From the NCBI GenBank assembly GCA_043228905.1, contig JBHGNT010000050.1, positions 62,001-126,000 of the forward strand: a stretch of DNA of 64,000 bases. Direction: 5' to 3'. Positions within the stretch are counted from its first letter, which is position 1. Each line of letters begins with the position of its first letter. The notes below the pieces were generated by a model, which was given only the letters and a program-made list of their open reading frames with translations, did not search any database and was not told the origin of the DNA. The stretch comes from Azolla caroliniana (lineage: Eukaryota > Plantae > Polypodiophyta). A program made the translations under genes and the position numbers. This document shows positions 40,907-64,000 of the stretch, piece after piece.

Positions 40907-42149
40907 TCACACGTGCCAGGTATGAACATTTAAGTTTACTGACACACTCTTCTCCACTACCTCCAACATGCTAATTTCCTCACGTCTCTCAACGTGAGTT
41001 TCAAAATCTTGATTTTTTAATTCTATAGCAAAGCTAGCGTAGTTAGCTTCGATTCGCATGTTTGAACACAAAAATCCGATATCACACGAGCCAGGTATGA
41101 CCATTTTAATTTACTCACTGGCTCTTCTCTACTCCCTCCTCAAATATGCTAATTTCCTCATGTCTCTCGAACTGAGTTTCAAAATCTCGATTTTTTAATT
41201 CTATGTCATAGCTAGCCTTGTTAGCTTCGATTCGCATTTTTGAACACAGAAATCCGATATCACACGAGCCAGGTATGACCATTTTAATTTACTCACTGGC
41301 TCTTCTCAACTCCTTCCTTAAATATGTTAATTTCGTCATGTCTCTCGACCTGAGTTTCAAAATCTCGATTTTTTAATTCTATATCATAGCTAGCTTTGTT
41401 AGCTTCGGTTCGCATGTTTGAACACAAAAATCCGATATCACACGAGCCAGGTATGATTATTTTAATTTACTCACTGGCTCTTCTCCACTCCCTCCTCAAA
41501 TATGCGAATTTCCTCATGTCTCTTGACCTGAGTTTCAAAATCTCGATTTTTTAATTCTATGTCATAGCTAGCCTTGTTAGCTTCGATTCGCATGTTTGAA
41601 CACAGAAATCCGATATCACACGAGCCAGGTATGACCATTTTAATTTACTCACTGGCTCTTCTCAACTCCTTCCTTAAATATGTTAATTTCGTCATGTCTC
41701 TCGACCTGAGTTTCAAAATCTCGATTTTTTAATTCTATATCATACCTAGCGTTGTTATCTTCGATTCGCATGTTTGAACACAAATATCCGATATCACACG
41801 TGCCAGGTATGAACATTTTAATTTACTGACGTACTCTTCTCCAATACCTCCTCAAATTTATTACTTTCCTCATGTCTCTCGGCCTCAGTTTTAAAATTAT
41901 AATTTGTCAATTCAATATCATAGCTAGCATGGTTAACTTTGATTCGCATGTTTGAACACAAAAATCTGATATCACACGAGCCAGGTATGAACATTTTAAT
42001 TTCCTGACGCACTCTTCTCCACTCCCTCCTCAAATGTGTTAATTTCGTCATGTCTCTCGACCTGAGTTTCAAAATCTCGATTTTTTAATTCTATATCATA
42101 GCTAGCGTTGTTATCTTCGATTCGCATGTTTGAACACAGAAATCCGATA

Positions 42150-45100
42150 TCACACGTGCCAGGTATGAACATTTAAGTTTACTGACACACTCTTCTCCAC
42201 TACCTCCAACATGCTAATTTCCTCATGTCTCTCAACGTGAGTTTCAAAATCTTGATTTTTTAATTCTATAGCAAAGCTAGCGTAGTTAGCTTCGATTCGC
42301 ATGTTTGAACACAAAAATCCGATATCACACGAGCCAGGTATGACCATTTTAATTTACTCACTGGCTCTTCTCAACTCCCTCCTCAAATATGTTAATTTTT
42401 TCATGTCTCTCGAACTGAGTTTCAAAATCTCGATTTTTTAATTCTATATCATAGCTAGCCTTGTTAGCTTCGATTCGCATGTTTGAACACAGAAATCCGA
42501 TATCACACGAGCCAGGTATGACCATTTTAATTTACTCACACGCTCTTCTCAACGCCCTCCTCAAATATGCTAATTTCGTCATGTCTCTCGACCTGAGTTT
42601 CAAAATCTCGATTTTTTAATTCTATATCATAGCTAGCTTTTTTAGCTTCGATTCGCATGTTTGAACACAAAAATCCGATATCACACGAGCCAGGTATGAC
42701 TATTTTAATTTACTCACTGGCTCTTCTCCACTCCCTCCTGAAATATGCGAATTTCCTCATGTCTCTGGACCTGAGTTTCAAAATCTCGATTTTTTAATTC
42801 TATGTCATAGCTAGCCTTGTTAGCTTCGATTCGCATGTTTGAACACAGAAATCCGATATAACACGAGCCACGTATGACCATTTTAATTTACTGACGCACT
42901 CTTCTCCACTACCTCCTCAAATTTGCTAATTTCGTCATGTCTCTCGGGCTCAGTTTTAAAATTTTCAATTTTCAATTCAATATCATAGCTAGCGTTGTTA
43001 ACTTCGATTCGCATGTTTGAACACAGAAATCCGATATCACACAAGCCAGGTATGACCATTTTAATTTACTCACTGGCTCTTCTCAACTCCCTCCTCAAAT
43101 ATGTTAATTTTTTCATGTCTCTCGAACTGAGTTTCAAAATCTCGATTTTTTAATTCTATATCATAGCTAGCCTTGTTAGCTTCGATTCGCATGTTTGAAC
43201 ACAGAAATCCGATATTACACGAGCCAGGTGTGACCATTTTAATTTACTCACTCGCTCTTCTCAACTCCCTCCTCCAACATGCTAATTTCCTCATGTCTCT
43301 CGACGTGAGTTTCAAAATCTTGATTTTTTAATTCTATATCAAAGCTGGCGTAGTTAGCTTCGATTCGCATGTTTGAACACAAAAATCCGATATCACACGA
43401 ACCAGGTATGACCATTTTAATTTACTCACTGGCTCTTCTCTACTCCCTCCTCAAATATGCTAATTTCCTCATGTCTCTCGAACTGAGTTTCAAAATCTCG
43501 ATTTTTTAATTCTATGTCATAGCTAACCTTGTTAGCTTCGATTCGCATGTTTGAACACAGAAATCCGATATCACACGAGCCAGGTGTGACCATTTTAATT
43601 TACTCACTGGCTCTTCTCAACTCCCTCCTTAAATATGTTAATTTCGTCATGTCTCTCGACCTAAGTTTCAAAATCTTGATTTTTTAATTTTATATCATAC
43701 CTAGCGTTGTTATCTTCGATTCGCATGTTTGAACACAAATATCCGATATCACACGTGCCAGGTATGAACATTTTAATTTACTGACGTACTCTTCTCCACT
43801 ACCTCCTCAAATTTGTTACTTTCCTCATGTCTCTCGGCCTCAGTTTTAAAATTATAATTTGTCAATTCAATATCATAGCTAGCATGGTTAACTTTGATTC
43901 GCATGTTTGAACACAAAAATCTGATATCACATGAGCCAGGTATGAACATTTTAATTTACTGACGCACTCTTCTCAACTCCCTCCTCAAATATGTTAATTT
44001 CATCATGTCTCTCGACTTGAGTTTCAAAATCTTGATTTTTTAATTCTATATCATAGCTAGCGTTGTTAGCTTCGATTCGCATGTTTGAACACAGAAATCC
44101 GATATCACACGTGCCAGGTATGAACATTTAAGTTTACTGACACACTCTTCTCCACTACCTCCAACATGCTAATTTCCTCATGTCTCTCAACGTGAGTTTC
44201 AAAATCTTGATTTTTTAATTCTATAGCAAAGCTAGCGTAGTTAGCTTCGATTCGCATGTTTGAACACAAAAATCCGATATCACACGAGCCAGGTATGACC
44301 ATTTTAATTTACTCACTGGCTCTTCTCTACTCCCTCCTCAAATATGCTAATTTCCTCATGTCTCTCGAACTGAGTTTCAAAATCTCGATTTTTTAATTCT
44401 ATGTCATAGCTAGCCTTGTTAGCTTCGATTCGCATGTTTGAACACAGAAATCCGATATCACACGAGCCAGGTATGACCATTTTAATTTACTCACTGGCTC
44501 TTCTCAACTCCTTCCTTAAATATGTTAATTTCGTCATGTCTCTCGACCTGAGTTTCAAAATCTCGATTTTTTAATTCTATATCATACCTAGCGTTGTTAT
44601 CTTCGATTCGCATGTTTGAACACAAATATCCGATATCACACGTGCCAGGTATGAACATTTTAATTTACTGACGTACTCTTCTCCAATACCTCCTCAAATT
44701 TGTTACTTTCCTCATGTCTCTCGGCCTCAGTTTTAAAATTATAATTTGTCAATTCAATATCATAGCTAGCATGGTTAACTTTGATTCGCATGTTTGAACA
44801 CAAAAATCCGATATCACACGAGCCAGATATGACCATTTTAATTTACTCACACGCTCTTCTCAACGCCCTCCTCAAATATGCTAATTTCGTCATGTCTCTC
44901 GACCTGAGTTTCAAAATCTCGATTTTTTAATTCTATATCATAGCTAGCTTTTTTAGCTTCGATTCGCATGTTTGAACACAAAAATCCGATATCACACGAG
45001 CCAGGTATGACTATTTTAATTTACTCACTGGCTCTTCTCCACTCCCTCCTGAAATATGCGAATTTCCTCATGTCTCTGGACCTGAGTTTCAAAATCTCGA

Positions 45101-48100
45101 TTTTTTAATTCTATGTCATAGCTAGCCTTGTTAGCTTCGATTCGCATGTTTGAACACAGAAATCCGATATCACACGAGCCACGTATGACCATTTTAATTT
45201 ACTGACGCACTCTTCTCCACTACCTCCTCAAATTTGCTAATTTCGTCATGTCTCTCGGGCTCAGTTTTAAAATTTTCAATTTTCAATTCAATATCATAGC
45301 TAGCGTTGTTAACTTCGATTCGCATGTTTGAACACAGAAATCCGATATCACACAAGCCAGGTATGACCATTTTAATTTACTCACTGGCTCTTCTCAACTC
45401 CCTCCTCAAATATGTTAATTTTTTCATGTCTCTCGAACTGAGTTTCAAAATCTCGATTTTTTAATTCTATATCATAGCTAGCCTTGTTAGCTTCGATTCG
45501 CATGTTTGAACACAGAAATCCGATATTACACGAGCCAGGTGTGACCATTTTAATTTACTCACTCGCTCTTCTCAACTCCCTCCTCCAACATGCTAATTTC
45601 CTCATGTCTCTCGACGTGAGTTTCAAAATCTTGATTTTTTAATTCTATATCAAAGCTGGCGTAGTTAGCTTCGATTCGCATGTTTGAACACAAAAATCCG
45701 ATATCACACGAACCAGGTATGACCATTTTAATTTACTCACTGGCTCTTCTCTACTCCCTCCTCAAATATGCTAATTTCCTCATGTCTCTCGAACTGAGTT
45801 TCAAAATCTCGATTTTTTAATTCTATGTCATAGCTAACCTTGTTAGCTTCGATTCGCATGTTTGAACACAGAAATCCGATATCACACGAGCCAGGTGTGA
45901 CCATTTTAATTTACTCACTGGCTCTTCTCAACTCCCTCCTTAAATATGTTAATTTCGTCATGTCTCTCGACCTAAGTTTCAAAATCTTGATTTTTTAATT
46001 CTATATCATACCTAGCGTTGTTATCTTCGATTCGCATGTTTGAACACAAATATCCGATATCACACGTGCCAGGTATGAACATTTTAATTTACTGACGTAC
46101 TCTTCTCCACTACCTCCTCAAATTTGTTACTTTCCTCATGTCTCTCGGCCTCAGTTTTAAAATTATAATTTGTCAATTCAATATCATAGCTAGCATGGTT
46201 AACTTTGATTCGCATGTTTGAACACAAAAATCTGATATCACACGAGCCAGGTATGAACATTTTAATTTACTGACGCACTCTTCTCAACTCCCTCCTCAAA
46301 TATGTTAATTTCATCATGTCTCTCGACTTGAGTTTCAAAATCTTGATTTTTTAATTCTATATCATAGCTAGCGTTGTTAGCTTCGATTCGCATGTTTGAA
46401 CACAGAAATCCGATATCACACGTGCCAGGTATGAACATTTAAGTTTACTGACACACTCTTCTCCACTACCTCCAACATGCTAATTTCCTCATGTCTCTCA
46501 ACGTGAGTTTCAAAATCTTGATTTTTTAATTCTATAGCAAAGCTAGCGTAGTTAGCTTCGATTCGCATGTTTGAACACAAAAATCCGATATCACACGAGC
46601 CAGGTATGACCATTTTAATTTACTCACTGGCTCTTCTCTACTCCCTCCTCAAATATGCTAATTTCCTCATGTCTCTCGAACTGAGTTTCAAAATCTCGAT
46701 TTTTTAATTCTATGTCATAGCTAGCCTTGTTAGCTTCGATTCGCATGTTTGAACACAGAAATCCGATATCACACGAGCCAGGTATGACCATTTTAATTTA
46801 CTCACTGGCTCTTCTCAACTCCTTCCTTAAATATGTTAATTTCATCATGTCTCTCGACCTGAGTTTCAAAATCTCGATTTTTTAATTCTATATCATACCT
46901 AGCGTTGTTATCTTCGATTCGCATGTTTGAACACAAATATCCGATATCACACGTGCCAGGTATGAACATTTTAATTTACTGACGTACTCTTCTCCAATAC
47001 CTCCTCAAATTTGTGACTTTCCTCATGTCTCTCGGCCTCAGTTTTAAAATTATAATTTGTCAATTCAATATCATAGCTAGCATGGTTAACTTTGATTCGC
47101 ATGTTTGAACACAAAAATCCGATATCACACGAGCCAGATATGACCATTTTAATTTACTCACACGCTCTTCTCAACGCCCTCCTCAAATATGCTAATTTCG
47201 TCATGTCTCTCGACCTGAGTTTCAAAATCTCGATTTTTTAATTCTATATCATAGCTAGCTTTTTTAGCTTCGATTCGCATGTTTGAACACAAAAATCCGA
47301 TATCACACGAGCCAGGTATGACTATTTTAATTTACTCACTGGCTCTTCTCCACTCCCTCCTGAAATATGCGAATTTCCTCATGTCTCTGGACCTGAGTTT
47401 CAAAATCTCGATTTTTTAATTCTATGTCATAGCTAGCCTTGTTAGCTTCGATTCGCATGTTTGAACACAGAAATCCGATATCACACGAGCCACGTATGAC
47501 CATTTTAATTTACTGACGCACTCTTCTCCACTACCTCCTCAAATTTGCTAATTTCGTCATGTCTCTCGGGCTCAGTTTTAAAATTTTCAATTTTCAATTC
47601 AATATCATAGCTAGCGTTGTTAACTTCGATTCGCATGTTTGAACACAGAAATCCGATATCACACAAGCCAGGTATGACCATTTTAATTTACTCACTGGCT
47701 CTTCTCAACTCCCTCCTCAAATATGTTAATTTTTTCATGTCTCTCGAACTGAGTTTCAAAATCTCGATTTTTTAATTCTATATCATAGCTAGCCTTGTTA
47801 GCTTCGATTCGCATGTTTGAACACAGAAATCCGATATTACACGAGCCAGGTGTGACCATTTTAATTTACTCACTCGCTCTTCTCAACTCCCTCCTCCAAC
47901 ATGCTAATTTCCTCATGTCTCTCGACGTGAGTTTCAAAATCTTGATTTTTTAATTCTATATCAAAGCTGGCGTAGTTAGCTTCGATTCGCATGTTTGAAC
48001 ACAAAAATCCGATATCACACGAACCAGGTATGACCATTTTAATTTACTCACTGGCTCTTCTCTACTCCCTCCTCAAATATGCTAATTTCCTCATGTCTCT

Positions 48101-48726
48101 CGAACTGAGTTTCAAAATCTCGATTTTTTAATTCTATGTCATAGCTAACCTTGTTAGCTTCGATTCGCATGTTTGAACACAGAAATCCGATATCACACGA
48201 GCCAGGTGTGACCATTTTAATTTACTCACTGGCTCTTCTCAACTCCCTCCTTAAATATGTTAATTTCGTCATGTCTCTCGACCTAAGTTTCAAAATCTTG
48301 ATTTTTTAATTCTATATCATACCTAGCGTTGTTATCTTCGATTCGCATGTTTGAACACAAATATCCGATATCACACGTGCCAGGTATGAACATTTTAATT
48401 TACTGACGTACTCTTCTCCACTACCTCCTCAAATTTGTTACTTTCCTCATGTCTCTCGGCCTCAGTTTTAAAATTATAATTTGTCAATTCAATATCATAG
48501 CTAGCATGGTTAACTTTGATTCGCATGTTTGAACACAAAAATCTGATATCACACGAGCCAGGTATGAACATTTTAATTTACTGACGCACTCTTCTCAACT
48601 CCCTCCTCAAATATGTTAATTTCATCATGTCTCTCGACTTGAGTTTCAAAATCTTGATTTTTTAATTCTATATCATAGCTAGCGTTGTTAGCTTCGATTC
48701 GCATGTTTGAACACAGAAATCCGATA
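42150..48726. repeat. Second HOR block: one 11-mer (1955 bp) plus two 13-mers (2311 bp)
   Basis: Marker monomer at 42150, 44105, 46416 and 48727. This matches 32019-38595 at a constant offset of 10131 bp. Confidence 0.9.
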
Positions 48727-51700
48727 TCACACGTGCCAGGTATGAACATTTAAGTTTACTGACACACTCTTCTCCACTACCTCCAACATGCTAATTTCCT
48801 CATGTCTCTCAACGTGAGTTTCAAAATCTTGATTTTTTAATTCTATAGCAAAGCTAGCGTAGTTAGCTTCGATTCGCATGTTTGAACACAAAAATCCGAT
48901 ATCACACGAGCCAGGTATGACCATTTTAATTTACTCACTGGCTCTTCTCAACTCCCTCCTCAAATATGTTAATTTTTTCATGTCTCTCGAACTGAGTTTC
49001 AAAATCTCGATTTTTTAATTCTATGTCATAGCTAGCCTTGTTAGCTTCGATTCGCATGTTTGAACACCGAAATCCGATATCACACGAGCCAGGTGTGACC
49101 ATTTTAATTTACTCACTCGCTCTTCTCAACTCCCTCCTCCAACATGCTAATTTCCTCATGTCTCTCGACGTGAGTTTCAAAATCTTGATTTTTTAATTCT
49201 ATATCAAAGCTAGCGTAGTTAGCTTCGATTCGCATGTTTGAACACAAAAATCCGATATCACACGAGCCAGGTATGACCATTTTAATTTACTCACTGGCTC
49301 TTCTCTACTCCCTCCTCAAATATGCTAATTTCCTCATGTCTCTCGAACTGAGAGTCAAAATCTCGATTTTTTAATTCTATGTCATAGCTAGCCTTGTTAG
49401 CTTCGATTCGCATGTTTGAACACAGAAATCCGATATCACACGAGCCACGTATGACCATTTTAATTTACTCACTGGCTCTTCTCAACTACCTCCTGAAATA
49501 TGCTAATTTCGGCATGTCTTTCGACGTGAGTTTCAAAATCTTGATTTTTAAATTCTATATCAAAGCTAGCGTTGTTAGCTCCGATTCGCATGTTTGAACA
49601 CAAAAATCCGATATTACACGAGCTAGGTATGACTATTTTAATTTACTCACTCGCTCTTCTCAACTCCCTCCTCAAATATGCTAATTTCCTCATGTCTCTC
49701 GACCTGAGTTTCAAAATCTCGATTTTTTAATTCTATATCATAGCTAGCCTTGTTAGCTTCGATTCGCATGTTTGAACATAGAAATCCGATATCACACGAG
49801 CCAGGCATGACCATTTTAATTTACTTACTGGCTCTTCTCAACTCCCTCCTTAAATATGTTAATTTTGTCATATCTCTCGACCTGAGTTTCAAAATCTCGA
49901 TCTTCTAATTCTATATCATAGCTAGCGTTGTTATCTTCGAGTCGCATGTTTGAACACATAAATCCGATATCACACGAGCCAGGTATGACCATTTTAATTT
50001 ACACTCTAGCACTTCTCAACTCCCTCCTCAAATATGCTAATTTCCTCATGTCTCTCGACTTTCGTTTCAAAATCTTGATTTTTAATTCTATATCATAGCT
50101 AGCCTTGTTAGCTTCGATTCGCATGTTTGAACACAGAAATCCGATATCACACGAGCCAGGTATGACCATTTTAATTTACTCACTGGCTCTTCTCAACTCC
50201 CTCCTCCAACATGCTAATTTCCTCATGTCTTTCGACGTCAGTTTCAAAATCTCGATTTTTTAATTCTATATCATAGCTAGCCTTGTTAGCTTCGATTTGC
50301 ATGTTTGAACACAGAAATCCGATATCACACGAGCCAGGTATAACCATTTCGTCATGTGTCTCGACCTAAGTTTCAAAATCTCGATTTTTTAATTCTATAT
50401 CATAGCTAGCGTTGTTATCTTCGATTCGCATGTTTGAACACAAATATCCGATATCACACGTGCCAGGTATGAACATTTTAATTTACTGACGTACTCTTCT
50501 CCACTACCTCCTCAAATTTGTTACTTTCCTCATGTCTCTCGGCCTCAGTTTTAAAATTATAATTTGTCAATTCAATATCATAGCTAGCATGGTTAACTTT
50601 GATTCGCATGTTTGAACACAAAAATCTGATATCACACGAGCCAGGTATGAACATTTTAATTTACTGACGCACTCTTCTCCACTCCCTCCTCAAATATGTT
50701 AATTTCGTCATGTCTCTCGACCTGAGTTTCAAAATCTTGATTTTTTAATTCTATATCATAGCTAGCGTTGTTAGCTTCGATTCGCATGTTTGAACACAGA
50801 AATCCGATATCACACGTGCCAGGTATGAACATTTTAATTTACTAACACACTCTTCTCCACTACCTCCTCAAATTTGCTAATTTCCTCATGTCTCTCGGCC
50901 TCAGTTTTAAAATTCTAATTTTTCAATTCAATATCATAGCTAGCGTTGTTAACCTCGATTCGCATGTTTGAACACAGAAATCCGATATCACACGAGCCAG
51001 GTATGACCATTTTAATTTACTCACTGGCTCTTCTCAACTCCTTCCTTAAATATGTTAATTTCGTCATGTCTCTCGACCTGAGTTTCAAAATCTCGATTTT
51101 TTAATTCTATATCATAGCTAGCTTTGTTAGCTTCGATTCGCATGTTTGAACACAAAAATCCGATATCACACGAGCCAGGTATGACTATTTTAATTTACTC
51201 ACTGGCTCTTCTCCACTCCCTCATCAAATATGCAAATTTCCTCATGTCTCTCGACCTGAGTTTCAAAATCTCGATTTTTTAATTCTATGTCATAGCTAGC
51301 CTTGTTAGCTTCGATTCGCATGTTTGAACACAGAAATCCGATATCACACGAGCCACGTATGACCATTTTAATTTACTGACGCACTCTTCTCCACTACCTC
51401 CTCAAATTTGCTAATTTCGTCATGTCTCTCGGCCTCAGTTTTAAAATTATCAATTTTCAATTCAATATCATAGCTAGCGTTGTTAACTTCGATTCGTATG
51501 TTTGAACACAGAAATCCGATATCACACGAGCCAGGTATGACCATTTTAATTTACTCACTGGCTCTTCTCAACTCCCTCCTCAAATATGTTAATTTCCTCA
51601 TGTCTCTCGACCTGAGTTTCAAAATCTCGATTTTTTAATTCTATATCATAGCTAGCCTTGTTAGCTTCGATTCGCATGTTTGAACACAGAAATCCGATAT

Positions 51701-53117
51701 CACACGAGCCAGGTGTGACCATTTTAATTTACTCAATCGCTCTTCTAAACTCCCTCCTCAAATATGCTAATTTCCTCATGTCTCTCGACGTGAGTTTCAA
51801 AATCTTGATTTTTTAATTCTATATCAAAGCTAGCGTAGTTAACTTCGATTCGCATGTTTGAACACAAAAATCCGATATCACACGAGCCAGGTATGACCAT
51901 TTTAATTTACTCACTGGCTATTCTCAACTCCCTCCTCAAATATGCTAATTTTCTCATGTCTATCGACCTGAGTTTCAAAATCTTGATTTTTTAATTCTAT
52001 ATTATAGCTAGCCTTGTTAGCTTCGATTCGCATGTTTGAACACAGAAATCCGATATCACACGAGCCAGGTATGACCATTTTAATTTACTCACACGCTCTT
52101 CTCAACTCCCTCCTCAAATATGCTAATTTCGTCATGTCTCTCGATCTGAGTTTCAAAATCTTGATATTTTAATTCTATATCATAGCTAGCGTTGTTAGCG
52201 TCGATTCGCATGTTTGAACACAAATATCCGATATCACACGAGCCAGGTGTGAACATTTTGATTTACTCACTGGCTCTTCTCAACTCCTTCTTGAAATATG
52301 CTAATTTCCTCATGTCTCTCGACCTGAGTTTCAAAATCTTGATTTTTTAATTCTATATCATAGCTAGCGTTGTTAGCTTCGATTCGCATGTTTGAACACA
52401 AAAATCCGATATCACACGAGCCAGGTATGAACATTTTAATTTACTCACTAGCTCTTCTCAACTCCCTCCTCAAATATTGTAATTTCTTCATGTCTCTCGA
52501 CCTGAGTTTCAAAATCTCGATTATTTAATTCTATATCATAGCTAGCGTTGTTATCTTCGATTCGCATGTTTGAACACAAAAATCCGATATCACACGTGCC
52601 AGGTATGAACATTTTAATTTACTGACGCACTCTTCTGCACTACCTCCTCAAATTTGCTAATTTCCTCATGTCTCTCGGCCTCAGTTTTAAAATTAAAAAT
52701 TTTCAATTCAATATCATAGCTAACGTTGTTAACTTCGATTCGCATGTTTGAACACAAAAATCTGATATCACACGAGCCCGGTATGAACATTTTAATTTAA
52801 TCACAACCTCTTCTCAACTCCCTCCTCAAATATGCTTATTTTTTCATGTCTCTCGACCTGAGTTTCAAAATCTCGATTTTTTGCTATGACCGTAGGATCG
52901 TGACAAGGAGTGCGAGCGAACTAGCACAACTATTGAGATGATATGGGAAGAGTAAGAAAAGAAATAAAGCAATGATGCAAGTGAAACTAAGGTGAGTAGG
53001 ATTAGAGGTGACCAAGAGTAAAAGAGAATGAGAGAATGAGATGAAAGAAGAAGAGAAGAAGAGAAGAGTGAGTGAGAAAAGAGAAAAGAGAAAAGCTTAA
53101 GAAATTTTCATTAGAAA

Positions 53118-53169
53118 GACCTTGTGCAAACTAGTTTCGCTCTAGGTAGAGCTCATCAGTGCCAAGGTC
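53118..53169 (-). ncRNA. Type I minimal hammerhead ribozyme
   Basis: Minus strand reads GACCUUG-GCA CUGAUGA GCUCU-ACCU-AGAGC GAAA CUAG UU UGC-A-CAAGGUC. It has intact CUGAUGA and GAAA core boxes, a 5-bp stem II, a 10-bp stem I with one bulged A, and a palindromic minimal stem III. Predicted cleavage is after GUU, between 53129 and 53128. Confidence 0.9.
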
Positions 53170-53189
53170 ATTTACAACAAGAGGGTAGG

Positions 53190-53197
53190 TTTATATA
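53190..53197 (-). promoter_or_regulatory. Candidate TATA box (TATATAAA) in the PLE 3' terminal region
   Basis: Minus strand reads CCCCC-TATATAAA-CC, starting 28 nt upstream of the first base of the hammerhead and just downstream of the (CT)31 tract. Function is inferred from position only. Confidence 0.5.
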
Positions 53198-53203
53198 GGG
53201 GGA

Positions 53204-53205
<2 letters not shown>

Positions 53206-53267
<62 letters not shown>
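53206..53267. repeat. (GA)31 microsatellite, (CT)n on the element sense strand
   Basis: Perfect 62-bp dinucleotide run in the 3' UTR of the PLE. Confidence 0.97.
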
Positions 53268-53270
<3 letters not shown>

Positions 53271-53380
53271 GGAGTTTAATGATGGGAGAGAGGGAAACGG
53301 GGAATTGTGATAGGTAATGGATTGGTTAGTGAAAGTGGGTTAGAGGGGGGTTATATGTATGTACATGATAAGTGATAGGT

Positions 53381-53401
53381 GGGGGTGGGTGTGGGGGTGG
53401 G
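53381..53401 (+). other. Potential G-quadruplex motif
   Basis: GGGGG-T-GGG-TGT-GGGGG-T-GGG: four G-tracts of at least 3 with 1-3 nt loops, about 20 nt beyond the RT stop codon. Confidence 0.55.
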
Positions 53402-53420
53402 ATATAAAAGGCATATAGTA

Positions 53421-54968
53421 TTAAGTGGGAGTTTTTATGGATTTATATTTAGTTTTGACGAGAAGAGAATGAATGGACTTAGACTTAGTCCAACATATGA
53501 AGGGTCGCGGTAGTTCGGATAGTTGGGGATGTGTGGCTAAATCTGCGTGGAGGTTTTCTAGCATGTCGTGAATTCCTAATCTAGGGGTATCTTTCGTATA
53601 CCTAAGTTTGAAGATGACAGGTATAAGGGTACTTTTAGGTTTTCTACTAAATACTAGTGATTTCCTGGCGTTAAATGGCACCTTTTTATAATTCTCTAAT
53701 ATAAAAGAAAGGGGATACCCTCTCTTAACTAATCTACTAAAAAATAGTTTTTTCATTCGAAGGAAACCTAAGGGGGTACTTTCTCTAATTAGGTATCGTT
53801 TTAGTTCATTAATAATAAAATGACGTTTTAAGTGAAGGGGGTGAACTGACGAGAATGAGAGATATTGGTAGGCATTTTGAGGCTTTTGGTAGCAATTAAA
53901 GGAGAAATGTGAATTCTTTAGGTTAATCCATAAATCTAAGAACGGTAATCTAAAGGGAGAAGTGGTGATGGTAATTTTGATGCAATTATTAGTGGAGGTG
54001 TTATAGAACTGGAGGTAATTTTCTAATTCGGGTTTAGTACCTGTCCATATCCCGAATGCATCATCTATATATCTAGTGAAATAAAAAAGATTAGGGTGTG
54101 ATGGCTGGGAGTTCTCTAAGTGAGCTAAGAATAGGCATGCATAAACTACAGAAAAATTACTACCCATGGCTGTACCCTTGACTTGTTGATAGATCATGTC
54201 ATCAAAGGATAGAAAGTGATATTCTAATGTGAGTGCGCTAAGTGTATAGATAAGGTTAGTTTTAGAAGATGAAAAATGTGGGGTAATCATTTTTCGTAAA
54301 GCTTGGAGTCCTAACCTAGGGGGTATGCTGGGATATAGAGATTCAACATCAAAGGTGAAGATAAAGCTATTAGGGGGTGGGTTGAGATGTTCTAAAGTCT
54401 GGACAAGGGAATGTGAGTCTTTCAAATATTGCTTTTGAAGGAGAAGGATAGGCATGAGTTGGTGGTGAAGCCATTTTGATGTTTGTTCAAAAAGGGAGTT
54501 ATTGTATGAGCAAATAGGTCTAAAACCTATTGGGTTTTTATGGAGTTTTGGGAGGAAATAGATATTGCATACTTTGTACCCTTTTGAGGGTTTATGTAGT
54601 ATGTAATTGGCTTCTATGTTGGATAGGGTACCAAGATGGTTATTAACAATGTTTTTCAATCTATAGGATAATTCCTCAAGTGGATAGTGGGAGACTTTTT
54701 TATATGTATTAGTATCAGAAAGGTGTTCTATAGCTTTGTTATAGTACGTGTCCTTATCAAGAACACACACTCCACCATTCTTGTCAGCAGGTAGGATTAT
54801 GATTTTGTTGTTTTTCTTAAGAGATTGTAAGGCTAGTGATAAGTGAGGTGCAATCCTAGTGGGTTTTAATTTGAGTGTATGAAGTGTGTCCCTAAAGATA
54901 GTTTGGTGTTTAGATATAATGTTTTCTAAGGGAGTGTACTTAGTAGGAGGTTGCCAACTAGGGTTAGG
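53421..54968 (-). CDS. PLE-type reverse transcriptase, N-terminally truncated (515 element-derived codons plus stop, no internal stop); no C-terminal GIY-YIG
   Basis: PLE RT motifs in order: ILPADKNGGVCVLD, IYFLPKLHK..FRPICS, FTFDVESLYPSIP, QQVKGTAMGS, RYIDD, LPFLDL, YQKP..YL.F.S.HP, RGYP. The first 17 aa of the listed 532-aa ORF (54969-55019, GTG start) are satellite read-through. Confidence 0.92.
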   Translation of the reverse strand, partial: PNPSWQPPTKYTPLENIISKHQTIFRDTLHTLKLKPTRIAPHLSLALQSLKKNNKIIILPADKNGGVCVLDKDTYYNKAIEHLSDTNTYKKVSHYPLEELSYRLKNIVNNHLGTLSNIEANYILHKPSKGYKVCNIYFLPKLHKNPIGFRPICSYNNSLFEQTSKWLHHQLMPILLLQKQYLKDSHSLVQTLEHLNPPPNSFIFTFDVESLYPSIPPRLGLQALRKMITPHFSSSKTNLIYTLSALTLEYHFLSFDDMIYQQVKGTAMGSNFSVVYACLFLAHLENSQPSHPNLFYFTRYIDDAFGIWTGTKPELENYLQFYNTSTNNCIKITITTSPFRLPFLDLWINLKNSHFSFNCYQKPQNAYQYLSFSSVHPLHLKRHFIINELKRYLIRESTPLGFLRMKKLFFSRLVKRGYPLSFILENYKKVPFNARKSLVFSRKPKSTLIPVIFKLRYTKDTPRLGIHDMLENLHADLATHPQLSELPRPFICWTKSKSIHSLLVKTKYKSIKTPT

Positions 54969-57900
54969 TAGCCTTGTTAGCTTCGATTCGCATGTTTGAA
55001 CAAAGAAATCCGATATCACACGAGCCAGGTATTACCATTTTAATTTACTCACTCGCTCTTCTCAACTCCCTCCTCAAATTTATTAATTTCCTCATGTCTC
55101 TCGGCCTCAATTTTAAAATTATAATTTGTCAATTCAATATCATAGCTAGCGTTGTTAACTTCGATTTTGCATGTTTGAACACAAAAATCCGATGTCACAC
55201 GAGCTAGGTATGACCATTTTAATTTACTCACTAGCTCTTCTCAACTCCCTCCTCAAATATTGTAATTTCTTCATGTCGCTCGACCTGAGTTTCAAAATCT
55301 CGATTTTTCAATTCAATATCATAGCTAGCGTTGTTAGCTTCCTTTCGCATGTTTGAACAGAGAAATCCGATATCACACGTGCCAGGTTTGACCATTTTAA
55401 TTTACTGACGCACTCTTCTCCACTACCTCCTTAAATTTGCTAATTTCGTCATGTCTCTCGGCCTATTCAATATCATAGCTAGCATTGTTAACTTCGATTC
55501 GCATGTTTGAACACAGAAATCCGATATCACACGAGCCAGGTATGACCATTTTAATTTACTCACTCGCTCTTCTCAACTCCCTCCTCAAACATGCTAATTT
55601 CCTCATGTCTTTCGACGTGAGTTTCAAAATCTTGATTTTTTAATTCTATATCAAAGCTAGCGTTGTTAGCTTCGATTCGCATGTTTGAACACAGACATCC
55701 GATATCACACGAGCTGGGTATGACCATTTTAATTTACTCACTGGCTCTTCTCAACTCCCTCCTCAAATATGCTAATTTCCTCATGTCTCTCGACCTGATT
55801 TTCAAAATCTCGATTTTTTAATTCTATATCATAGCTAGCCTTGTTAGTTTCGACTCGCATGTTTGAACACAGAAATCCGATGTCACACAAGCCAGGTATG
55901 ACCATTTTAATTTACTCACACGCTCTTCTCAACACCCTCCTCAAATATTGTAATTTCTTCATGTCGCTCGACCTGAGTTTCAAAATCTCGATTTTTTAAT
56001 TCTATATCATAGCTAGCGTTGTTAACTTCGATGCGCATGTTTGAATAGAGAAATCCGATATCACACGAGCCAGGTATGACCATTTTAATTTACTCACTGG
56101 CTCTTCTCAACTCCCTCCTCAAATATGCTAATTTCCACATGTCTCTCGATCTGAGTTTCAAAATCTCGATTTTTTAATTCTATATCATAGCTAGCGTTGT
56201 TAGATTCGATTCGCATGTTTGAACACAAAAATCCGATATCACACGAGCCAGGTATGACCATTTTAATTTACTCACACGCTCTTCTCAACTCCCTCCTCAA
56301 ATATGCTAATTTCCTCATGTCTCTCGACCTGAGTTTCAAAATCTCGATTTTTTAATTCTATGTCATAACTAGCCTTGTTAGCTTCGATTCGCATGTTTGA
56401 ACACAGAAATCCGATATCACACGAGCCAGGTATGACCATTTTAATTTACTCACTCGCTCTTCTCAACTCCCTCCACCAACATGCTAATTTCCTCATGTCT
56501 TTCGACGTCAGTTTCAAAATCTTGATTTTTTAATTCTATATCATAGCTAGCCTTGTTAGCTTCGATTCGCATGTTTGAACACAAAAATCCGATATCACAA
56601 GAGCCAGGTATGACCATTTTAATTTACTCACTCGCTCTTCTCAACTCCCTCCTCCAGCATGCTAATTTCCTCATGTCTTTCGACGTCAGTTTCAAAATCT
56701 TGATATTTTAATTCTATATCATAGCTAGCGTTGTTAGCTTCGATTCGCATGTTTGAACACAAAAATCCGATATCACACGAGCCAGGTATGAACATTTTAA
56801 TTTACTCACTAGCTCTTCTCAACTCCCTCCTCAAATATTGTAATTTCTTCATGTCTCTCGACCTGAGTTTCAAAATCTCGATTTTTTAATTCTATATCAT
56901 AGCTAGCCTTGTTAGTTTCGATTCGCATGTTTGAATACAGAAATCCGATATCACACGAGCCAGGTATAACCATTTTAATTTACTCACTCGCTCTTCTCAA
57001 CTCCCTCCTCCAACATGCTAATTTCCTCATGTCTTTCGACGTCAGTTTCAAAATCTTGATATTTTAATTCTATATCATAGCTAGCCTTGTTAGCTTCGAT
57101 TCACATGTTTGAGCACAGAAATCCGATATCACACGAGCCAAGTATGACCATTTTAATTTACTCACTGGCTCTTCTCAACTCCCTCCTCAAATATGTTAAT
57201 TTCGTCATGTCTCTCGACCTGAGTTTCAAAATCTCGATTTTTTAATTCTATATCATACCTAGCTTTGTTAGCTTCGATTCGCATGTTTGAACACAAAAAT
57301 CAAATATCACACGAGCCAGGTATGACCATTTTAATTTACTCACTCGCTCTTCTCAACTCCCTCCTCCAACATGCTAATTTCCTCATGTCTTTCGACGTCA
57401 GTTTCAAAATCTTGATTTTTTAATTCTATATCATAGCTAGCCTTGTTAGTTTCGATTCGCATGTTTGAACACAGAAATCCGATATCACACGAGCCAGGTA
57501 TGACCATTTTAATTTACTCACTCGCTCTTCTCAACTCCCTCCTCCAACATGCTAATTTCCTCATGTCTTTCGACGTCAGTTTCAAAATCTCGATTTTTTA
57601 ATTCTATATCATAGCTAGCCTTGTTAGCTTCGATTTGCATGTTTGAACACAGAAATCCGATATCACACGAGCCAGGTATGACCATTTAAATTTACTCACT
57701 GGCTCTTCTCAACTCCCTCCTCAAATATGCTAATTTCGGCATGTCTCTCGACCTGAGTTTCAAAATCTTGATTTTTAAATTCTATATCAAAGCTAGCGTT
57801 GTTAGCTTCGATTCGCATGTTTGAACACAAAAATCCGATATTAAACGAGCCAGGTATGACCATTTTAATTTACTCACTCGCTCTTCTCAACTCCCTCCTC

Positions 57901-60900
57901 AAATATGCTAATTTCCGCATGTCTCTCGACCTGAGTTTCAAAATCTCGATCTTCTAATTCTATATCATAGCTAGCGTTGTTAGCTTCGATTCGCATGTTT
58001 GAACACAAAAATCCGATATCACACGAGCCAGGTATGAACATTTTAATTTACTCACTAGCTCTTCTCAACTCCCTCCTCAAATATTGTAATTTCTTCATGT
58101 CTCTCGACCTGAGTTTCAAAATCTCGATTATTTAATTCTATATCATAGCTAGCGTTCTTATCTTCGATTCGCATGTTTGAACACAAAAATCCGATATCAG
58201 ACGTGCCAGGTATGAACATTTTAATTTACTCACTGGCTCTTCTCAACTCCTTCTTGAAATACGCTAATTTCCTCATGTCTCTCGACCTGAGTTTCAAAAT
58301 CTCGATTTTTTAATTCTATATCATAGCTAGCGTTGTTAGCTTCGATTTGCATGTTTGAACACAAAAATCCGATATCACACGAGCCAGGTATGAACATTTT
58401 AATTTACTCACTAGCTCTTCTCAACTCCCTCCTCAAATATTGTAATTTCTTCATGTCTCTCGACCTGAGTTTCAAAGTCTCGATTATTTAATTCTATATC
58501 ATAGCTAGCGTTGTTATCTTCGATTCGCATGTTTGAACACAAAAATCCGATATCACACATGCCAGGTATGAACATTTTAATTTACTCACTAGCTCTTCTC
58601 AACTCCCTCCTCAAATATTCTAATTTCCTCATGTCGCTCGACCTGAGTTTCAAAATCTCGATTTTTTAATTCTATATCATAGCTAGCGTTGTTAGCTTCG
58701 ATTCGCATGTTTGAACACAAAAATCCGATATCACACGAGCCAGGTATGAACATTTTAATTTACTCACTAGCTCTTCTCAACTCCCTCCTCAAATATTGTA
58801 ATTTCCTCATGTCTTTCGACATCAGTTTCAAAATCTTGATTTTTTAATTCTATATCATAGCTAGCGTTGTTAGCTTCGATTCGCATGTTTGAACAGAGAA
58901 ATCCGATATCACACGTGCCAGGTTTGACCAGTTTAATTTACTCACTCGCTCTTCTCAACTCCCTCCTCAAATATGCTAATTTCCTCATGTCTCTCGACCT
59001 GAGTTTCAAAATCTCGATTTTTTAATTCTATGTCATAACTAGCCTTGTTAGCTTCGATTCGCATGTTTGAACACAGAAATCCGATATCACACGAGCCAGG
59101 TATGACCATTTTAATTTACTCACTCGCTCTTCTCAACTCCCTCCTCCAACATGCTAATTTCCTCATGTCTTTCGACGTCAGTTTCCAAATCTCGATTTTT
59201 TAATTCTATATCATAGCTAGCCTTGTTAGCTTCGATTCGCATGTTTGAACACAGAAATCCGATATCACACGAGCCAGGTATGACCATTTTAATTTACTCA
59301 CTCGCTCTTCTCAACTCCCTCCTCCAACATGCTAATTTCCTCATGTCTTTCGACGTCAGTTTCAAAATCTTGATTTTTTAATTCTATATCATAGCTAGCC
59401 TTGTTAGTTTCGATTCGCATGTTTGAACACAAAAATCCGATATCACACGAGCCAGGTATGACCATTTTAATTTACTCACTCGCTCTTCTCAACTCCCTCC
59501 TCCAACATGCTAATTTCCTCATGTCTTTCGACGTCAGTTTCAAAATCTCGATTTTTTAATTCTATATCATAGCTAGCCTTGTTAGCTTCGATTTGCATGT
59601 TTGAACACAGAAATCCGATATCACACGAGCCAGGTATGACCATTTAAATTTACTCACTGGCTCTTCTCAACTCCCTCCTCAAATATGCTAATTTCGGCAT
59701 GTCTCTCGACCTGAGTTTCAAAATCTTGATTTTTAAATTCTATATCAAAGCTAGCGTTGTTAGCTTCGATTCGCATGTTTGAACACAAAAATCCGATATT
59801 AAACGAGCCAGGTATGACCATTTTAATTTACTCACTCGCTCTTCTCAACTCCCTCCTCAAATATGCTAATTTCCGCATGTCTCTCGACCTGAGTTTCAAA
59901 ATCTCGATCTTCTAATTCTATATCATAGCTAGCGTTGTTAGCTTCGATTCGCATGTTTGAACACAAAAATCCGATATCACACGAGCCAGGTATGAACATT
60001 TTAATTTACTCACTAGCTCTTCTCAACTCCCTCCTCAAATATTGTAATTTCTTCATGTCTCTCGACCTGAGTTTCAAAATCTCGATTATTTAATTCTATA
60101 TCATAGCTAGCGTTCTTATCTTCGATTCGCATGTTTGAACACAAAAATCCGATATCAGACGTGCCAGGTATGAACATTTTAATTTACTCACTGGCTCTTC
60201 TCAACTCCTTCTTGAAATACGCTAATTTCCTCATGTCTCTCGACCTGAGTTTCAAAATCTCGATTTTTTAATTCTATATCATAGCTAGCGTTGTTAGCTT
60301 CGATTTGCATGTTTGAACAAAAAAATCCGATATCACACGAGCCAGGTATGAACATTTTAATTTACTCACTAGCTCTTCTCAACTCCCTCCTCAAATATTG
60401 TAATTTCTTCATGTCTCTCGACCTGAGTTTCAAAGTCTCGATTATTTAATTCTATATCATAGCTAGCGTTGTTATCTTCGATTCGCATGTTTGAACACAA
60501 AAATCCGATATCACACGTGCCAGGTATGAACATTTTAATTTACTCACTAGCTCTTCTCAACTCCCTCCTCAAATATTCTAATTTCCTCATGTCGCTCGAC
60601 CTGAGTTTCAAAATCTCGATTTTTTAATTCTATATCATAGCTAGCGTTGTTAGCTTCGATTCGCATGTTTGAACACAAAAATCCGATATCACACGAGCCA
60701 GGTATGAACATTTTAATTTACTCACTAGCTCTTCTCAACTCCCTCCTCAAATATTGTAATTTCCTCATGTCTTTCGACATCAGTTTCAAAATCTTGATTT
60801 TTTAATTCTATATCATAGCTAGCGTTGTTAGCTTCGATTCGCATGTTTGAACAGAGAAATCCGATATCACACGTGCCAGGTTTGACCAGTTTAATTTACT

Positions 60901-63900
60901 CACTCGCTCTTCTCAACTCCCTCCTCAAATATTGTAATTTCCTCATGTCTCTCGACCTGAGTTTCAAAGTCTTGATTTTTTAATTCTATATCATAGCTAG
61001 CCTTGTTAGTTTCGATTCGCATGTTGGAACACAGAAATCCGATATCACACGAGCCAGGTATGACCATTTTAATTTACTCACTCGCTCTTCTCAACTCCCT
61101 CCTCCAACATGCTAATTTCCTCATGTCTTTAGACGTCAGTTTCAAAATCTTGATTTTTTAATTCTATATCATAGCTAGCCTTGTTAGCTTCGATTTGCAT
61201 GTTTGAACACAGAAATCCGATATCACACGAGCCAGGTATGACCATTTTAATTTACTCACACGCTCTTCTCAACTCCCTCCTCAAATATGCTAATTTCGGC
61301 ATGTCTCTCGACCTGAGTTTCAAAATCTTGATTTTTTAATTCTATATCATAGCTAGCCTTGTTAGTTTCGATTCGCATGTTTGAACACAGAAATCCGATA
61401 TCACACGAGCCAGGTATGACCATTTTAATTTACTCACTCGCTCTTCTCAACTCCCTCCTCCAACATGCTAATTTCCTCATGTCTTTCGACGTCAGTTTCA
61501 AAATCTCGATTTTTTAATTCTATATCATAGCTAGCCTTGTTAGCTTCGATTTGCATGTTTGAACACAGAAATCCGATATCACACGAGCCAGGTATGACCA
61601 TTTAAATTTACTCACTGGCTCTTCTCAACTCCCTCCTCAAATATGCTAATTTCGGCATGTCTCTCGACCTGAGTTTCAAAATCTTGATTTTTAAATTCTA
61701 TATCAAAGCTAGCGTTGTTAGCTTCGATTCGCATGTTTGAACACAAAAATACGATATTAAACGAGCCAGGTATGACCATTTTAATTTACTCACTCGCTCT
61801 TCTCAACTCCCTCCTCAAATATGCTAATTTCCGCATGTCTCTCGACCTGAGTTTCAAAATCTCGATCTTCTAATTCTATATCATAGCTAGCGTTGTTAGC
61901 TTCGATTCGCATGTTTGAACACAAAAATCCGATATCACACGAGCCAGGTATGACCATTTTAATTTACTCACTCGCTCTTCTCAACTCCCTCCTCCAACAT
62001 GCTAATTTCCTCATGTCTTTCGACGTCAGTTTCAAAATCTCGATTTTTTAATTCTATATCATAGCTAGCCTTGTTAGCTTCGATTTGCATGTTTGAACAC
62101 AGAAATCCGATATCACACGAGCCAGGTATGACCATTTAAATTTACTCACTGGCTCTTCTCAACTCCCTCCTCAAATATGCTAATTTCGGCATGTCTCTCG
62201 ACCTGAGTTTCAAAATCTTGATTTTTAAATTCTATATCAAAGCTAGCGTTGTTAGCTTCGATTCGCATGTTTGAACACAAAAATCCGATATTAAACGAGC
62301 CAGGTATGACCATTTTAATTTACTCACTCGCTCTTCTCAACTCCCTCCTCAAATATGCTAATTTCCGCATGTCTCTCGACCTGAGTTTCAAAATCTCGAT
62401 CTTCTAATTCTATATCATAGCTAGCGTTGTTAGCTTCGATTCGCATGTTTGAACACAAAAATCCGATATCACACGAGCCAGGTATGAACATTTTAATTTA
62501 CTCACTAGCTCTTCTCAACTCCCTCCTCAAATATTGTAATTTCTTCATGTCTCTCGACCTGAGTTTCAAAATCTCGATTTTTTAATTCTATATCATAGCT
62601 AGCCTTGTTAGTTTCGATTCGCATGTTTGAATACAGAAATCCGATATCACACGAGCCAGGTATAACCATTTTAATTTACTCACTCGCTCTTCTCAACTCC
62701 CTCCTCCAACATGCTAATTTCCTCATGTCTTTCGACGTCAGTTTCAAAATCTTGATATTTTAATTCTATATCATAGCTAGCCTTGTTAGCTTCGATTCAC
62801 ATGTTTGAGCACAGAAATCCGATATCACACGAGCCAAGTATGACCATTTTAATTTACTCACTGGCTCTTCTCAACTCCCTCCTCAAATATGTTAATTTCG
62901 TCATGTCTCTCGACCTGAGTTTCAAAATCTCGATTTTTTAATTCTATATCATACCTAGCTTTGTTAGCTTCGATTCGCATGTTTGAACACAAAAATCAAA
63001 TATCACACGAGCCAGGTATGACCATTTTAATTTACTCACTCGCTCTTCTCAACTCCCTCCTCCAACATGCTAATTTCCTCATGTCTTTCGACGTCAGTTT
63101 CAAAATCTTGATTTTTTAATTCTATATCATAGCTAGCCTTGTTAGTTTCGATTCGCATGTTTGAACACAGAAATCCGATATCACACGAGCCAGGTATGAC
63201 CATTTTAATTTACTCACTCGCTCTTCTCAACTCCCTCCTCCAACATGCTAATTTCCTCATGTCTTTCGACGTCAGTTTCAAAATCTCGATTTTTTAATTC
63301 TATATCATAGCTAGCCTTGTTAGCTTCGATTTGCATGTTTGAACACAGAAATCCGATATCACACGAGCCAGGTATGACCATTTAAATTTACTCACTGGCT
63401 CTTCTCAACTCCCTCCTCAAATATGCTAATTTCGGCATGTCTCTCGACCTGAGTTTCAAAATCTTGATTTTTAAATTCTATATCAAAGCTAGCGTTGTTA
63501 GCTTCGATTCGCATGTTTGAACACAAAAATCCGATATTAAACGAGCCAGGTATGACCATTTTAATTTACTCACTCGCTCTTCTCAACTCCCTCCTCAAAT
63601 ATGCTAATTTCCGCATGTCTCTCGACCTGAGTTTCAAAATCTCGATCTTCTAATTCTATATCATAGCTAGCGTTGTTAGCTTCGATTCGCATGTTTGAAC
63701 ACAAAAATCCGATATCACACGAGCCAGGTATGAACATTTTAATTTACTCACTAGCTCTTCTCAACTCCCTCCTCAAATATTGTAATTTCTTCATGTCTCT
63801 CGACCTGAGTTTCAAAATCTCGATTATTTAATTCTATATCATAGCTAGCGTTCTTATCTTCGATTCGCATGTTTGAACACAAAAATCCGATATCAGACGT

Positions 63901-64000
63901 GCCAGGTATGAACATTTTAATTTACTCACTGGCTCTTCTCAACTCCTTCTTGAAATACGCTAATTTCCTCATGTCTCTCGACCTGAGTTTCAAAATCTCG
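54969..64000. repeat. 178-bp tandem satellite array (right part), same family and orientation
   Basis: The same monomer resumes after the insertion and continues to the window end. Confidence 0.98.
57300..62000. repeat. Distinct 11-mer periodicity of 1958 bp (11x178), about two good copies plus a partly rearranged third; boundaries approximate
   Basis: Variant GATATTAAACGAG has its TT at 57841, 59799 and 61757 (spacing 1958). Variants GCGTTCTTATC, TTCAAAGTCTCG and TTCGACATCAG are shared by the first two copies. Confidence 0.8.

What the first reader, a model, noticed from the sequence alone, without database searches (positions are those of the whole stretch)
52883..54968. Penelope-like retroelement with an intact RT frame but no C-terminal endonuclease, embedded in a centromere-like satellite
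Seen: the RT frame is open for 515 codons and terminates at ...PFICWTKSKSIHSLLVKTKYKSIKTPT*, followed directly by non-coding UTR. No Cys-rich linker or GIY-YIG motif follows. Known: Penelope/Poseidon and Neptune PLEs carry GIY-YIG C-terminal to RT, Naiad/Chlamys PLEs carry it N-terminal, and Athena/Coprina lack it and are telomere-associated. Inference: this is a domain-permuted (Naiad/Chlamys-like) PLE whose endonuclease was lost by 5' truncation, or an endonuclease-less lineage inserting at internal sites. Well-known satellite-invading elements are mostly LTR or LINE types, so a PLE in this niche is worth following up. One copy cannot demonstrate targeting.
Basis: partly seen in the sequence, partly recalled or inferred. 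Interest (0 to 1): 0.8.

Follow-up and report, generated by a model that had tools for sequence, protein, structure and literature searches.

The report
Telomere-type retroelement stranded in plant satellite
A shortened copy of a jumping gene that has no DNA-cutting enzyme, of a known kind that normally attaches to chromosome tips, sits inside a long 178-base repeat array of what is likely a land plant, where it likely patched a DNA break; its full-length relatives also lack the cutter, and nothing yet shows that it seeks out such arrays.

Summary
In detail: 52883-54968 (minus strand) is the only non-satellite stretch in 64 kb of a 178-bp array and carries a 515-codon Penelope-like RT frame with no GIY-YIG. 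Full-length sisters (97% identical, 620 aa) start 105 residues upstream, with no endonuclease at either end, no CxC and no IFD. The family is a 4.6-4.7 kb two-ORF unit (helical ORF1, DKN-type RT, 3' hammerhead). It lies in head-to-tail chains in 9 of 16 related loci, carries (CCCTAA)n inside ORF1, and in one locus ends within that repeat. Its RT nests with Selaginella and conifer sequences in an endonuclease-free clade: a Coprina-type telomeric element. This copy is 5'-truncated, ends at the family's recurrent 3' end about 250 nt past the ribozyme, and shows junction microhomology, a 16-bp target deletion and no duplication, which fits capture at a DNA break. Targeting is unshown: 1 of 11 non-element junctions in related loci is satellite, at another monomer position. 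Centromeric status is untested, as no genome is held. The scan earlier noted what appears to be this family elsewhere in this genome (unchecked). Interest 0.35.

The parts
1..52882 (+). 178-bp satellite array, left arm; ends in a T6 run (52877-52882) at monomer position 137
52881..52882 (-). 3' junction: two bases shared by the element's terminal AA and the satellite's T run
   Evidence: L003 and L011 read ..ACAAC-AA at this place; contigs of X11 and X3 run two letters past 52883 and stop
52883..54968 (-). 5'-truncated copy of an endonuclease-less (Coprina-type) Penelope-like element; replaces 16 bp of one monomer; no target-site duplication
52883..53420 (-). 3' UTR (pLTR part); in chains it is followed directly by the next unit's ORF1
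52895..52917 (-). 23-nt block near the 3' end kept in both subfamilies while the UTR around it diverges to about 70%; possible end signal (weak)
53109..53172 (-). type I hammerhead ribozyme with a short palindromic stem III (predicted to work as a dimer); predicted cut 3' of 53129 (GUU)
   Evidence: HH9, 20.7 bits, E 0.07, below gathering 52; z -3.68, 0 of 200 shuffles; core kept in 11 of the 11 loci that cover it, with a compensatory pair in stem II
53206..53267 (+). (GA)31 microsatellite in the UTR, also present in sisters
53421..54968 (-). ORF2 remnant, residues 106-620 of the family RT (DKN motif, RT core with GTAMGS and YIDD, thumb); no GIY-YIG
54965..54972 (.). 5' junction microhomology: 4 of 4 at 54969-54972, 7 of 8 at 54965-54972
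   Evidence: (loose ends at 54972 in 4 of 4 runs); chance of 4 or more matching bases about 0.017
54969..64000 (+). 178-bp satellite array, right arm; resumes at monomer position 154

Best explanation
This is a 5'-truncated, non-autonomous copy of an endonuclease-less, Coprina-type Penelope-like retroelement of a likely land plant, and it was likely written into a pre-existing DNA break in the satellite array rather than into a site it cut or chose. Shown: the family unit is ORF1 (about 720 aa, with an in-frame (CCCTAA)n run read as Asn-Pro repeats) + ORF2 (620 aa, RT only) + 3' UTR with a hammerhead, 4.6-4.7 kb, in head-to-tail chains. Inferred, normal life cycle: read-through RNA that runs into the next ORF1 pairs its CCCUAA run with a G-rich chromosome-end overhang, and the RT extends the end, building chains; the hammerhead, predicted to cut as a dimer, would trim multimeric RNA. 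Inferred, this event: an RNA ending at the family's recurrent 3' end (about 250 nt past an uncut hammerhead, about 20 nt before the next ORF1 start) paired its terminal A's with the T6 end of a broken monomer. The RT, supplied by an intact copy, copied 2.09 kb, and the cDNA was joined to the far end by 4-8 nt of microhomology, with loss of 16 bp.
For: No endonuclease in the family: P0001 (97%, 620 aa) and P0002-P0008 begin with Met and have no CxC, CxxC or YIG-like word in the first 200 residues; Pfam finds no GIY-YIG in ORF1 or ORF2; a GIY-YIG profile finds nothing in six frames of 16 loci and the insert (best E 0.88; controls 4e-31 and 1.6e-9). Tree: a clade of 30 with Selaginella, Cryptomeria and Picea (support 0.999, 0 of 30 with EN), inside a clade of 187 with 0 EN (support 0.805). 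Chains in 9 of 16 loci and (CCCTAA)2+ in 10 of 16. L009 leaves the element inside the (CCCTAA)n run for unrelated DNA. The same build, and a telomeric repeat at the inner border, is described for Coprina-1_Alen (PMC13159263 section 17). Recurrent 3' end: window, L011, and contig ends in two runs of two studies. Junctions. Priming at double-strand breaks is part of the published model for EN-deficient PLEs (PMC3846280 passage). Other fragments abut LTR-retrotransposon-like and unique DNA.
Against: No host genome is held, so terminal position of the chains, the host telomere motif and the genome-wide spread are not shown. The telomere-type junction is one case (L009), from a short-read assembly. 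The tree holds no named Coprina, Naiad, Chlamys, Athena or TERT reference and is midpoint-rooted. The break lies exactly at TTTTTT|AA, which matches the recalled L1 endonuclease site. One related locus (L007) also joins a related 194-bp satellite (64-71% alike). The telomeric run lies about 1.3 kb from the hammerhead, not beside it as described for Terminons.
Confidence: 0.76

Rival explanations
1. The family, or a subfamily, is preferentially drawn into satellite (centromeric) arrays without a nuclease, for example because each monomer offers a T6 end that its RNA end pairs with, or because ORF1 binds centromeric chromatin.
For: The window copy and L007 both touch members of one satellite family. 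Short-read assemblies under-represent copies embedded in satellite. EN-less site targeting has a precedent in spikemoss PLE-X at 28S rDNA (PMC8557442 section 9).
Against: One copy in 64 kb of array. 1 of 11 distinct non-element junctions in 16 loci is satellite, at about monomer position 65, against 137-154 here. The L007 junction cuts ORF1, so it is not the recurrent 3' end. Most copies sit behind other copies.
Confidence: 0.1
2. The nick was supplied in trans by another element's endonuclease (a LINE APE-type or an EN+ PLE), and the RNA was copied by ordinary target-primed reverse transcription.
For: The break is at TTTTTT|AA, the recalled L1 consensus, and the element ends in AA against the T run.
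Against: No target-site duplication and no added A tail; a 16-bp deletion instead. L011 ends at the same place with no A run behind it. No cross-mobilisation of EN-less PLEs by Penelope EN was seen in a rotifer (PMC3846280 passage).
Confidence: 0.08
3. No reverse transcription took place here: a DNA piece of a telomeric chain was copied or captured into the break.
For: Microhomology at both ends and a small deletion also fit end-joining of a DNA fragment; several related fragments have arbitrary ends on both sides (L005, L013/L014).
Against: The 3' end falls on the recurrent end shared with L011 and with contig stops in X11 and X3, which a random DNA piece would rarely hit.
Confidence: 0.05
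4. A Naiad/Chlamys element whose N-terminal GIY-YIG was lost by 5' truncation.
For: Only the absence of a C-terminal endonuclease in a truncated copy.
Against: Full-length sisters have only 105 more residues, with no GIY-YIG or CxC; motif A-B spacing is 58, so no IFD; the motif is DKN, not DKA; a canonical hammerhead is present; the ORF upstream has no nuclease match (criteria from PMC8557442 sections 6 and 9).
Confidence: 0.01

Closest known systems
Coprina-type EN-deficient PLEs, including Selaginella moellendorffii Sm1/Sm2 and the two-ORF Coprina-1_Alen (PMC13159263, passages and section 17; PMC8557442, passages and sections 6, 9, 12)
   Same: No GIY-YIG; DKN motif; RT plus thumb; upstream ORF that is helical and disordered; about 4.5 kb; telomere-complementary repeats on the sense strand; type I hammerhead in the pLTR (reported for Selaginella in PMC4209133, passages); RT 39% identical to a Selaginella protein and in one clade with it.
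   Different: The telomeric run lies in frame inside ORF1, about 1.05 kb past its start; it is the 6-mer CCCTAA, not the 7-mer usual in land plants (recalled); internal copies use a second 3' end with no telomeric repeat; this copy is inside a satellite. Whether Sm1/Sm2 share these traits could not be read (the 2007 and 2017 papers are not held).
Athena / Terminons of bdelloid rotifers (PMC12477314 and PMC3846280, passages)
   Same: EN-less RT, chains at chromosome ends, C-rich repeats and hammerheads, priming at telomeres or at double-strand breaks.
   Different: Rotifer lineage; there the repeats lie directly beside the hammerhead; giant multi-ORF units.
PLE-X of spikemosses (Chlamys clade; PMC8557442 section 9)
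   Same: Plant, EN-less, canonical hammerhead, inserts at internal sites.
   Different: PLE-X has the CxC motif and a Cys-rich N-terminal extension and targets one 28S rDNA site; none of these is seen here.
Naiad / Chlamys (PMC8557442)
   Same: No C-terminal endonuclease; frequent 5' truncation.
   Different: No N-terminal GIY-YIG, no CxC, no IFD, hammerhead present.

Membership tests
Penelope-like elements | PLE-type RT with N-terminal motifs, DK motif, core and thumb | tested here: met
   (PF28514/PF26215/PF00078 set on relatives)
Coprina-type EN- PLE | No GIY-YIG endonuclease in the full-length element | tested here: met
Coprina-type EN- PLE | DKN motif before the RT core | tested here: met
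   motif named in PMC13159263
Coprina-type EN- PLE | Reverse-complement telomeric repeats on the sense strand | tested here: met
   (CCCTAA)2+ in 10 of 16 loci; absent from the truncated window copy; match to the host's own telomere motif not tested
Coprina-type EN- PLE | Hammerhead ribozyme in the pLTR | tested here: met
   cleavage itself not tested
Coprina-type EN- PLE | Location at chromosome ends, ORFs pointing inwards | tested here: inconclusive
   chains in 9 of 16 loci and one junction inside (CCCTAA)n; no assembly held; the window copy is internal
Coprina-type EN- PLE | RT clade membership with named Coprina references | tested here: inconclusive
   nests with Selaginella and conifer proteins in an EN-free clade next to C-terminal EN+ sequences; no Repbase references were available in the tree
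Naiad/Chlamys | N-terminal GIY-YIG endonuclease | tested here: not met
Naiad/Chlamys | CxC motif upstream of the RT | tested here: not met
   0 of 8 full-length sisters
Naiad/Chlamys | Insertion in fingers (about 20-40 extra aa between RT motifs A and B) | tested here: not met
   spacing 58 against 52-68 (mostly 59-63) in C-terminal EN+ hits
Naiad/Chlamys | Lack of a canonical hammerhead (most families) | tested here: not met
Penelope/Poseidon, Neptune, Dryad | C-terminal GIY-YIG | tested here: not met
Centromere-targeting element | Enrichment in a CENH3-bound satellite | not testable with these tools
   no genome or ChIP data; a 20-nt satellite stretch found 0 papers

The most novel reading that the evidence does not exclude
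A plant telomeric retroelement with two priming modes: an in-frame (CCCTAA)n run inside ORF1 for chromosome ends, and a fixed, structured 3' end that primes on T-rich broken ends, through which it preferentially colonises a centromeric satellite with no nuclease or integrase. It would be an endonuclease-free centrophilic element and a natural recorder of breaks in centromeric arrays; the recent centromere atlas lists only GIY-YIG-primed Penelope, in chordates.
Probability: 0.1. Interest if true: 0.75.

Novelty: new member of a known kind. Interest (0 to 1): 0.35.

Why it matters
Telomere-associated elements are called rare in plants, with Selaginella as the Penelope-like example (PMC12477314, passage). 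This family adds a young, multi-copy, full-length example from what is likely another land-plant lineage, with relatives in conifers. It also gives a clean record of an endonuclease-less RT inserting at an internal site, which the published model predicts for DNA breaks. The 6-mer telomeric run inside a coding frame makes two testable predictions: that the host has TTAGGG-type telomeres, and that read-through RNA is the template at chromosome ends. As it stands, one truncated copy in a satellite is an ordinary outcome for a known kind of element.

Tried and rejected
Host genome: none held, so copy number, flanks and satellite enrichment could not be counted.

The TAGGGTTAGG at the 5' junction looked like a telomerase cap. 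Rejected: it is the element's own coding sequence for Pro-Asn-Pro, and the window has no two-unit telomeric repeat.

The last 7 nt of the element are the reverse complement of part of the deleted target and looked like an inverted capture. Rejected: contigs of X11 and X3 carry the same end with 0 and 1 differences.

Host identity: a Gypsy gag from L016 found 41 hits, none named; cluster look-ups gave no organism for the five closest clusters asked about; a paper search on fern telomere motifs gave one paper, with one assembly-methods sentence on (TTAGGG)n, which is not decisive; a 20-nt satellite stretch matched 0 papers.

ORF1: no Pfam family; 7 homologues, all unnamed; no usable Atlas hit; a single-sequence fold of residues 1-331 had mean pLDDT 46.8 with long helices, too poor for a fold search, so none was run.

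Expression: no RNA holder listed. Two poly(A) runs under the species label of a partial holder gave 22 and 23 reads among about 12.6 million records each, none 99% alike, mostly on one strand, with no pile-up at the ribozyme: weak, and not about this copy.

3'-end structure: RNAalifold on 7 sequences (two subfamilies, two near-identical pairs) gave only -4.57 kcal/mol, with 2 of 11 pairs compensated: inconclusive.

Papers not held: Gladyshev & Arkhipova 2007, Arkhipova 2017, Lin 2016; they may already describe Sm1/Sm2 or conifer features that are called differences here. No supplements were read. Searches for a prior report showed no listing whose title or abstract start describes an EN-less PLE in a plant satellite or in a fern; only listings were seen for most.
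Full report
Observation. The window is one 178-bp satellite array on one strand. Masking with its own consensus leaves a single gap, 52883-54964; 273 full monomers average 93.8% identity to the consensus. The insert holds a minus-strand frame open for 515 codons to a stop at 53421-53423, with RVT_1 as its only Pfam match (E 2.4e-6). The broken monomer stops after its T6 run (position 137) and resumes at position 154, so 16 bp are gone and nothing is duplicated.

No endonuclease in the family. A protein search gave 187 hits, of which 120 were listed. The best are 97% (P0001, 620 aa) and 86% (P0002, 627 aa) identical; the best named ones are from Cryptomeria (38-43%), Selaginella (39%) and Ginkgo (40%), and a Picea protein lies in one of the clusters. 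In the alignment, P0001-P0008 start with Met about 105 residues before the window's first codon and end where the window's frame ends. Their first 200 residues have no CxC, CxxC or YIG-like word (0 of 8). Pfam finds no GIY-YIG in P0001, in the ORF2 of L001 or in three ORF1 copies, but finds it in a control (P0044). A profile built from eight C-terminal GIY-YIG domains finds nothing in six frames of the 16 loci and the insert (best E 0.88) and finds two controls at 4e-31 and 1.6e-9; it is built from C-terminal domains and could miss a very divergent one. The spacing between RT motifs A and B is 58, as in canonical PLEs, so there is no IFD; the DK motif reads DKN. By the criteria in PMC8557442 (passages, abstract, sections 6, 9 and 12) this excludes Naiad, Chlamys and PLE-X.

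Phylogeny. 244 of 262 proteins (18 dropped for partial cover), 471 columns, FastTree, midpoint root. The window sequence lies in a clade of 30 (support 0.999) with Selaginella, five Cryptomeria proteins and Picea, none with an endonuclease. That clade is inside one of 187 with none (support 0.805); all 37 GIY-YIG-bearing tips lie outside it, and all carry the domain C-terminally. This matches the published picture of Coprina next to Neptune, but the tree holds no named references. Pfam found no GIY-YIG in 29 longer or IFD-like RT relatives either.

The full element. Sixteen loci from metagenome assemblies match the insert at 80-99%. The unit is 4.6-4.7 kb: ORF1 of about 720-810 aa, ORF2, and a 3' UTR of about 0.5 kb. 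In 9 of 16 loci the UTR is followed directly by the next ORF1. ORF1 holds a run of CCCTAA about 1.05 kb past its ATG, read as Asn-Pro repeats with nearly fixed codons; 10 of 16 loci have two or more units, and none has the 7-mer. In L009 the element stops inside this run and unrelated DNA follows, where L010 goes on in ORF1. This is the inner border described for Coprina-1_Alen, a 4.5 kb two-ORF element with coil ORF1 and DKN-RT-thumb ORF2 (PMC13159263, passages and section 17). The UTR carries a type I hammerhead at 53109-53172: a weak Rfam score (20.7 bits, E 0.07), but a complete core, folding z -3.68, kept in all 11 loci that cover it, with a compensatory pair in stem II in L008-L010. Its short palindromic stem III is the form reported to need a dimer, and canonical type I hammerheads are reported in Selaginella PLEs (PMC4209133, passages).

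This copy. At its 5' end the element's sequence continues to 54972 (loose ends there in 4 of 4 runs), giving 4 of 4 and 7 of 8 shared bases with the satellite; four or more arise by chance about 1.7% of the time. At its 3' end it stops at ..CATAGC-AA, where L011, a copy fused to a Copia-like frame (read by eye), also stops, and where contigs of two runs from two studies end two letters past 52883 (a branch between subfamilies could also end a contig there). This end is about 250 nt past the predicted ribozyme cut and about 20 nt before the next ORF1 start, so the template RNA had not been cut by that ribozyme (inferred). The copy is young: 99.1% to L005 over 1503 nt, 9 silent and 5 amino-acid differences in 495 codons. 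It is single, although the array has 99-100% identical 11- and 13-monomer duplications between about 30 and 48 kb. It cannot encode a full RT.

Targeting. The 16 loci show 11 distinct junctions to non-element DNA (L005 two, L007 two, L008, L009, L011 two, L013/L014 two shared, L016). One is telomere-like (L009). One is a related 194-bp satellite (L007), reached from within ORF1 at about monomer position 65, not 137-154. The rest are LTR-retrotransposon-like or unique DNA, and some are ends made by later insertions. Short-read assemblies of other samples are biased against satellite, so this neither shows nor excludes enrichment. Whether the array is centromeric is untested; no genome is held.

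Mechanism. Shown: no nuclease; chains; telomeric run; ribozyme motif; recurrent 3' end; microhomology, deletion and no duplication. Inferred: telomere priming through the ORF1 run on read-through RNA; capture of this copy at a break, primed by the T6 end on the RNA's terminal A's; end-joining of the truncated cDNA. Priming at deprotected telomeres or double-strand breaks is the published model for EN-deficient PLEs (PMC3846280, passages). The break also matches the recalled L1 site TTTT/AA, so a nick from another element is a rival, weakened by the lack of a duplication or tail.

Known and new. Plant telomeric PLEs are cited for Selaginella only in a 2025 review (PMC12477314, passages). A 2026 centromere atlas notes Penelope in satellites of chordates and treats them as GIY-YIG-primed (10.64898/2026.09.17.752431, passages). 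The host is a land plant by the RT tree. 'Fern' comes from unchecked notes on this genome and was not confirmed here. Verdict: a new member of a known kind, in an uncommon place; interest 0.35.

Noticed in passing
window about 21000-48000 and 57000-59000: Recent higher-order duplications in the satellite: lags of 1955 bp (11 monomers), 2311 bp (13) and 4767 bp (27) at 97-100% identity, against 73-93% ungapped at one monomer. Typical of an actively turning-over array.
   Followed up: partly
L007:5503-6096: A 194-bp satellite 64-71% alike to the window's 178-bp monomer, so the satellite family has at least two monomer lengths among related samples.
   Followed up: partly
L001:4790-4823, L003:5420-5640, L010:1839-2100: The telomeric 6-mer inside ORF1 varies in copy number and stays in frame (Asn-Pro repeats); in the L003/L009/L010 subfamily it forms 30-nt higher-order units. 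It predicts TTAGGG-type telomeres in the host.
   Followed up: partly
L001, L003, L009, L010: Chains mix subfamilies (adjacent units 67-86% alike; L003 carries three kinds in a row), as expected if units are added one by one at an end rather than by rolling-circle copying of one RNA.
   Followed up: partly
window 53126-53162: Many contigs match only the hammerhead core and run on into other sequence on both sides, so other hammerhead-bearing families exist in these genomes.
   Followed up: no
window 52895-52917: A 23-nt block near the 3' end is almost invariant between subfamilies whose UTRs are only about 70% alike, followed by a small possible hairpin.
   Followed up: partly
L001:5881-6003: The ORF2 frame opens about 40 codons before its first Met, overlapping the ORF1 stop, with a basic stretch (KKRVARRAKR) conserved across subfamilies; it suggests a frameshift or non-ATG start that adds a nuclear localisation signal.
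   Followed up: no
P0223 (cluster 9): A Picea glauca member of this clade is annotated as a mitochondrial-assembly gene (ABT39_MTgene4059).
   Followed up: no
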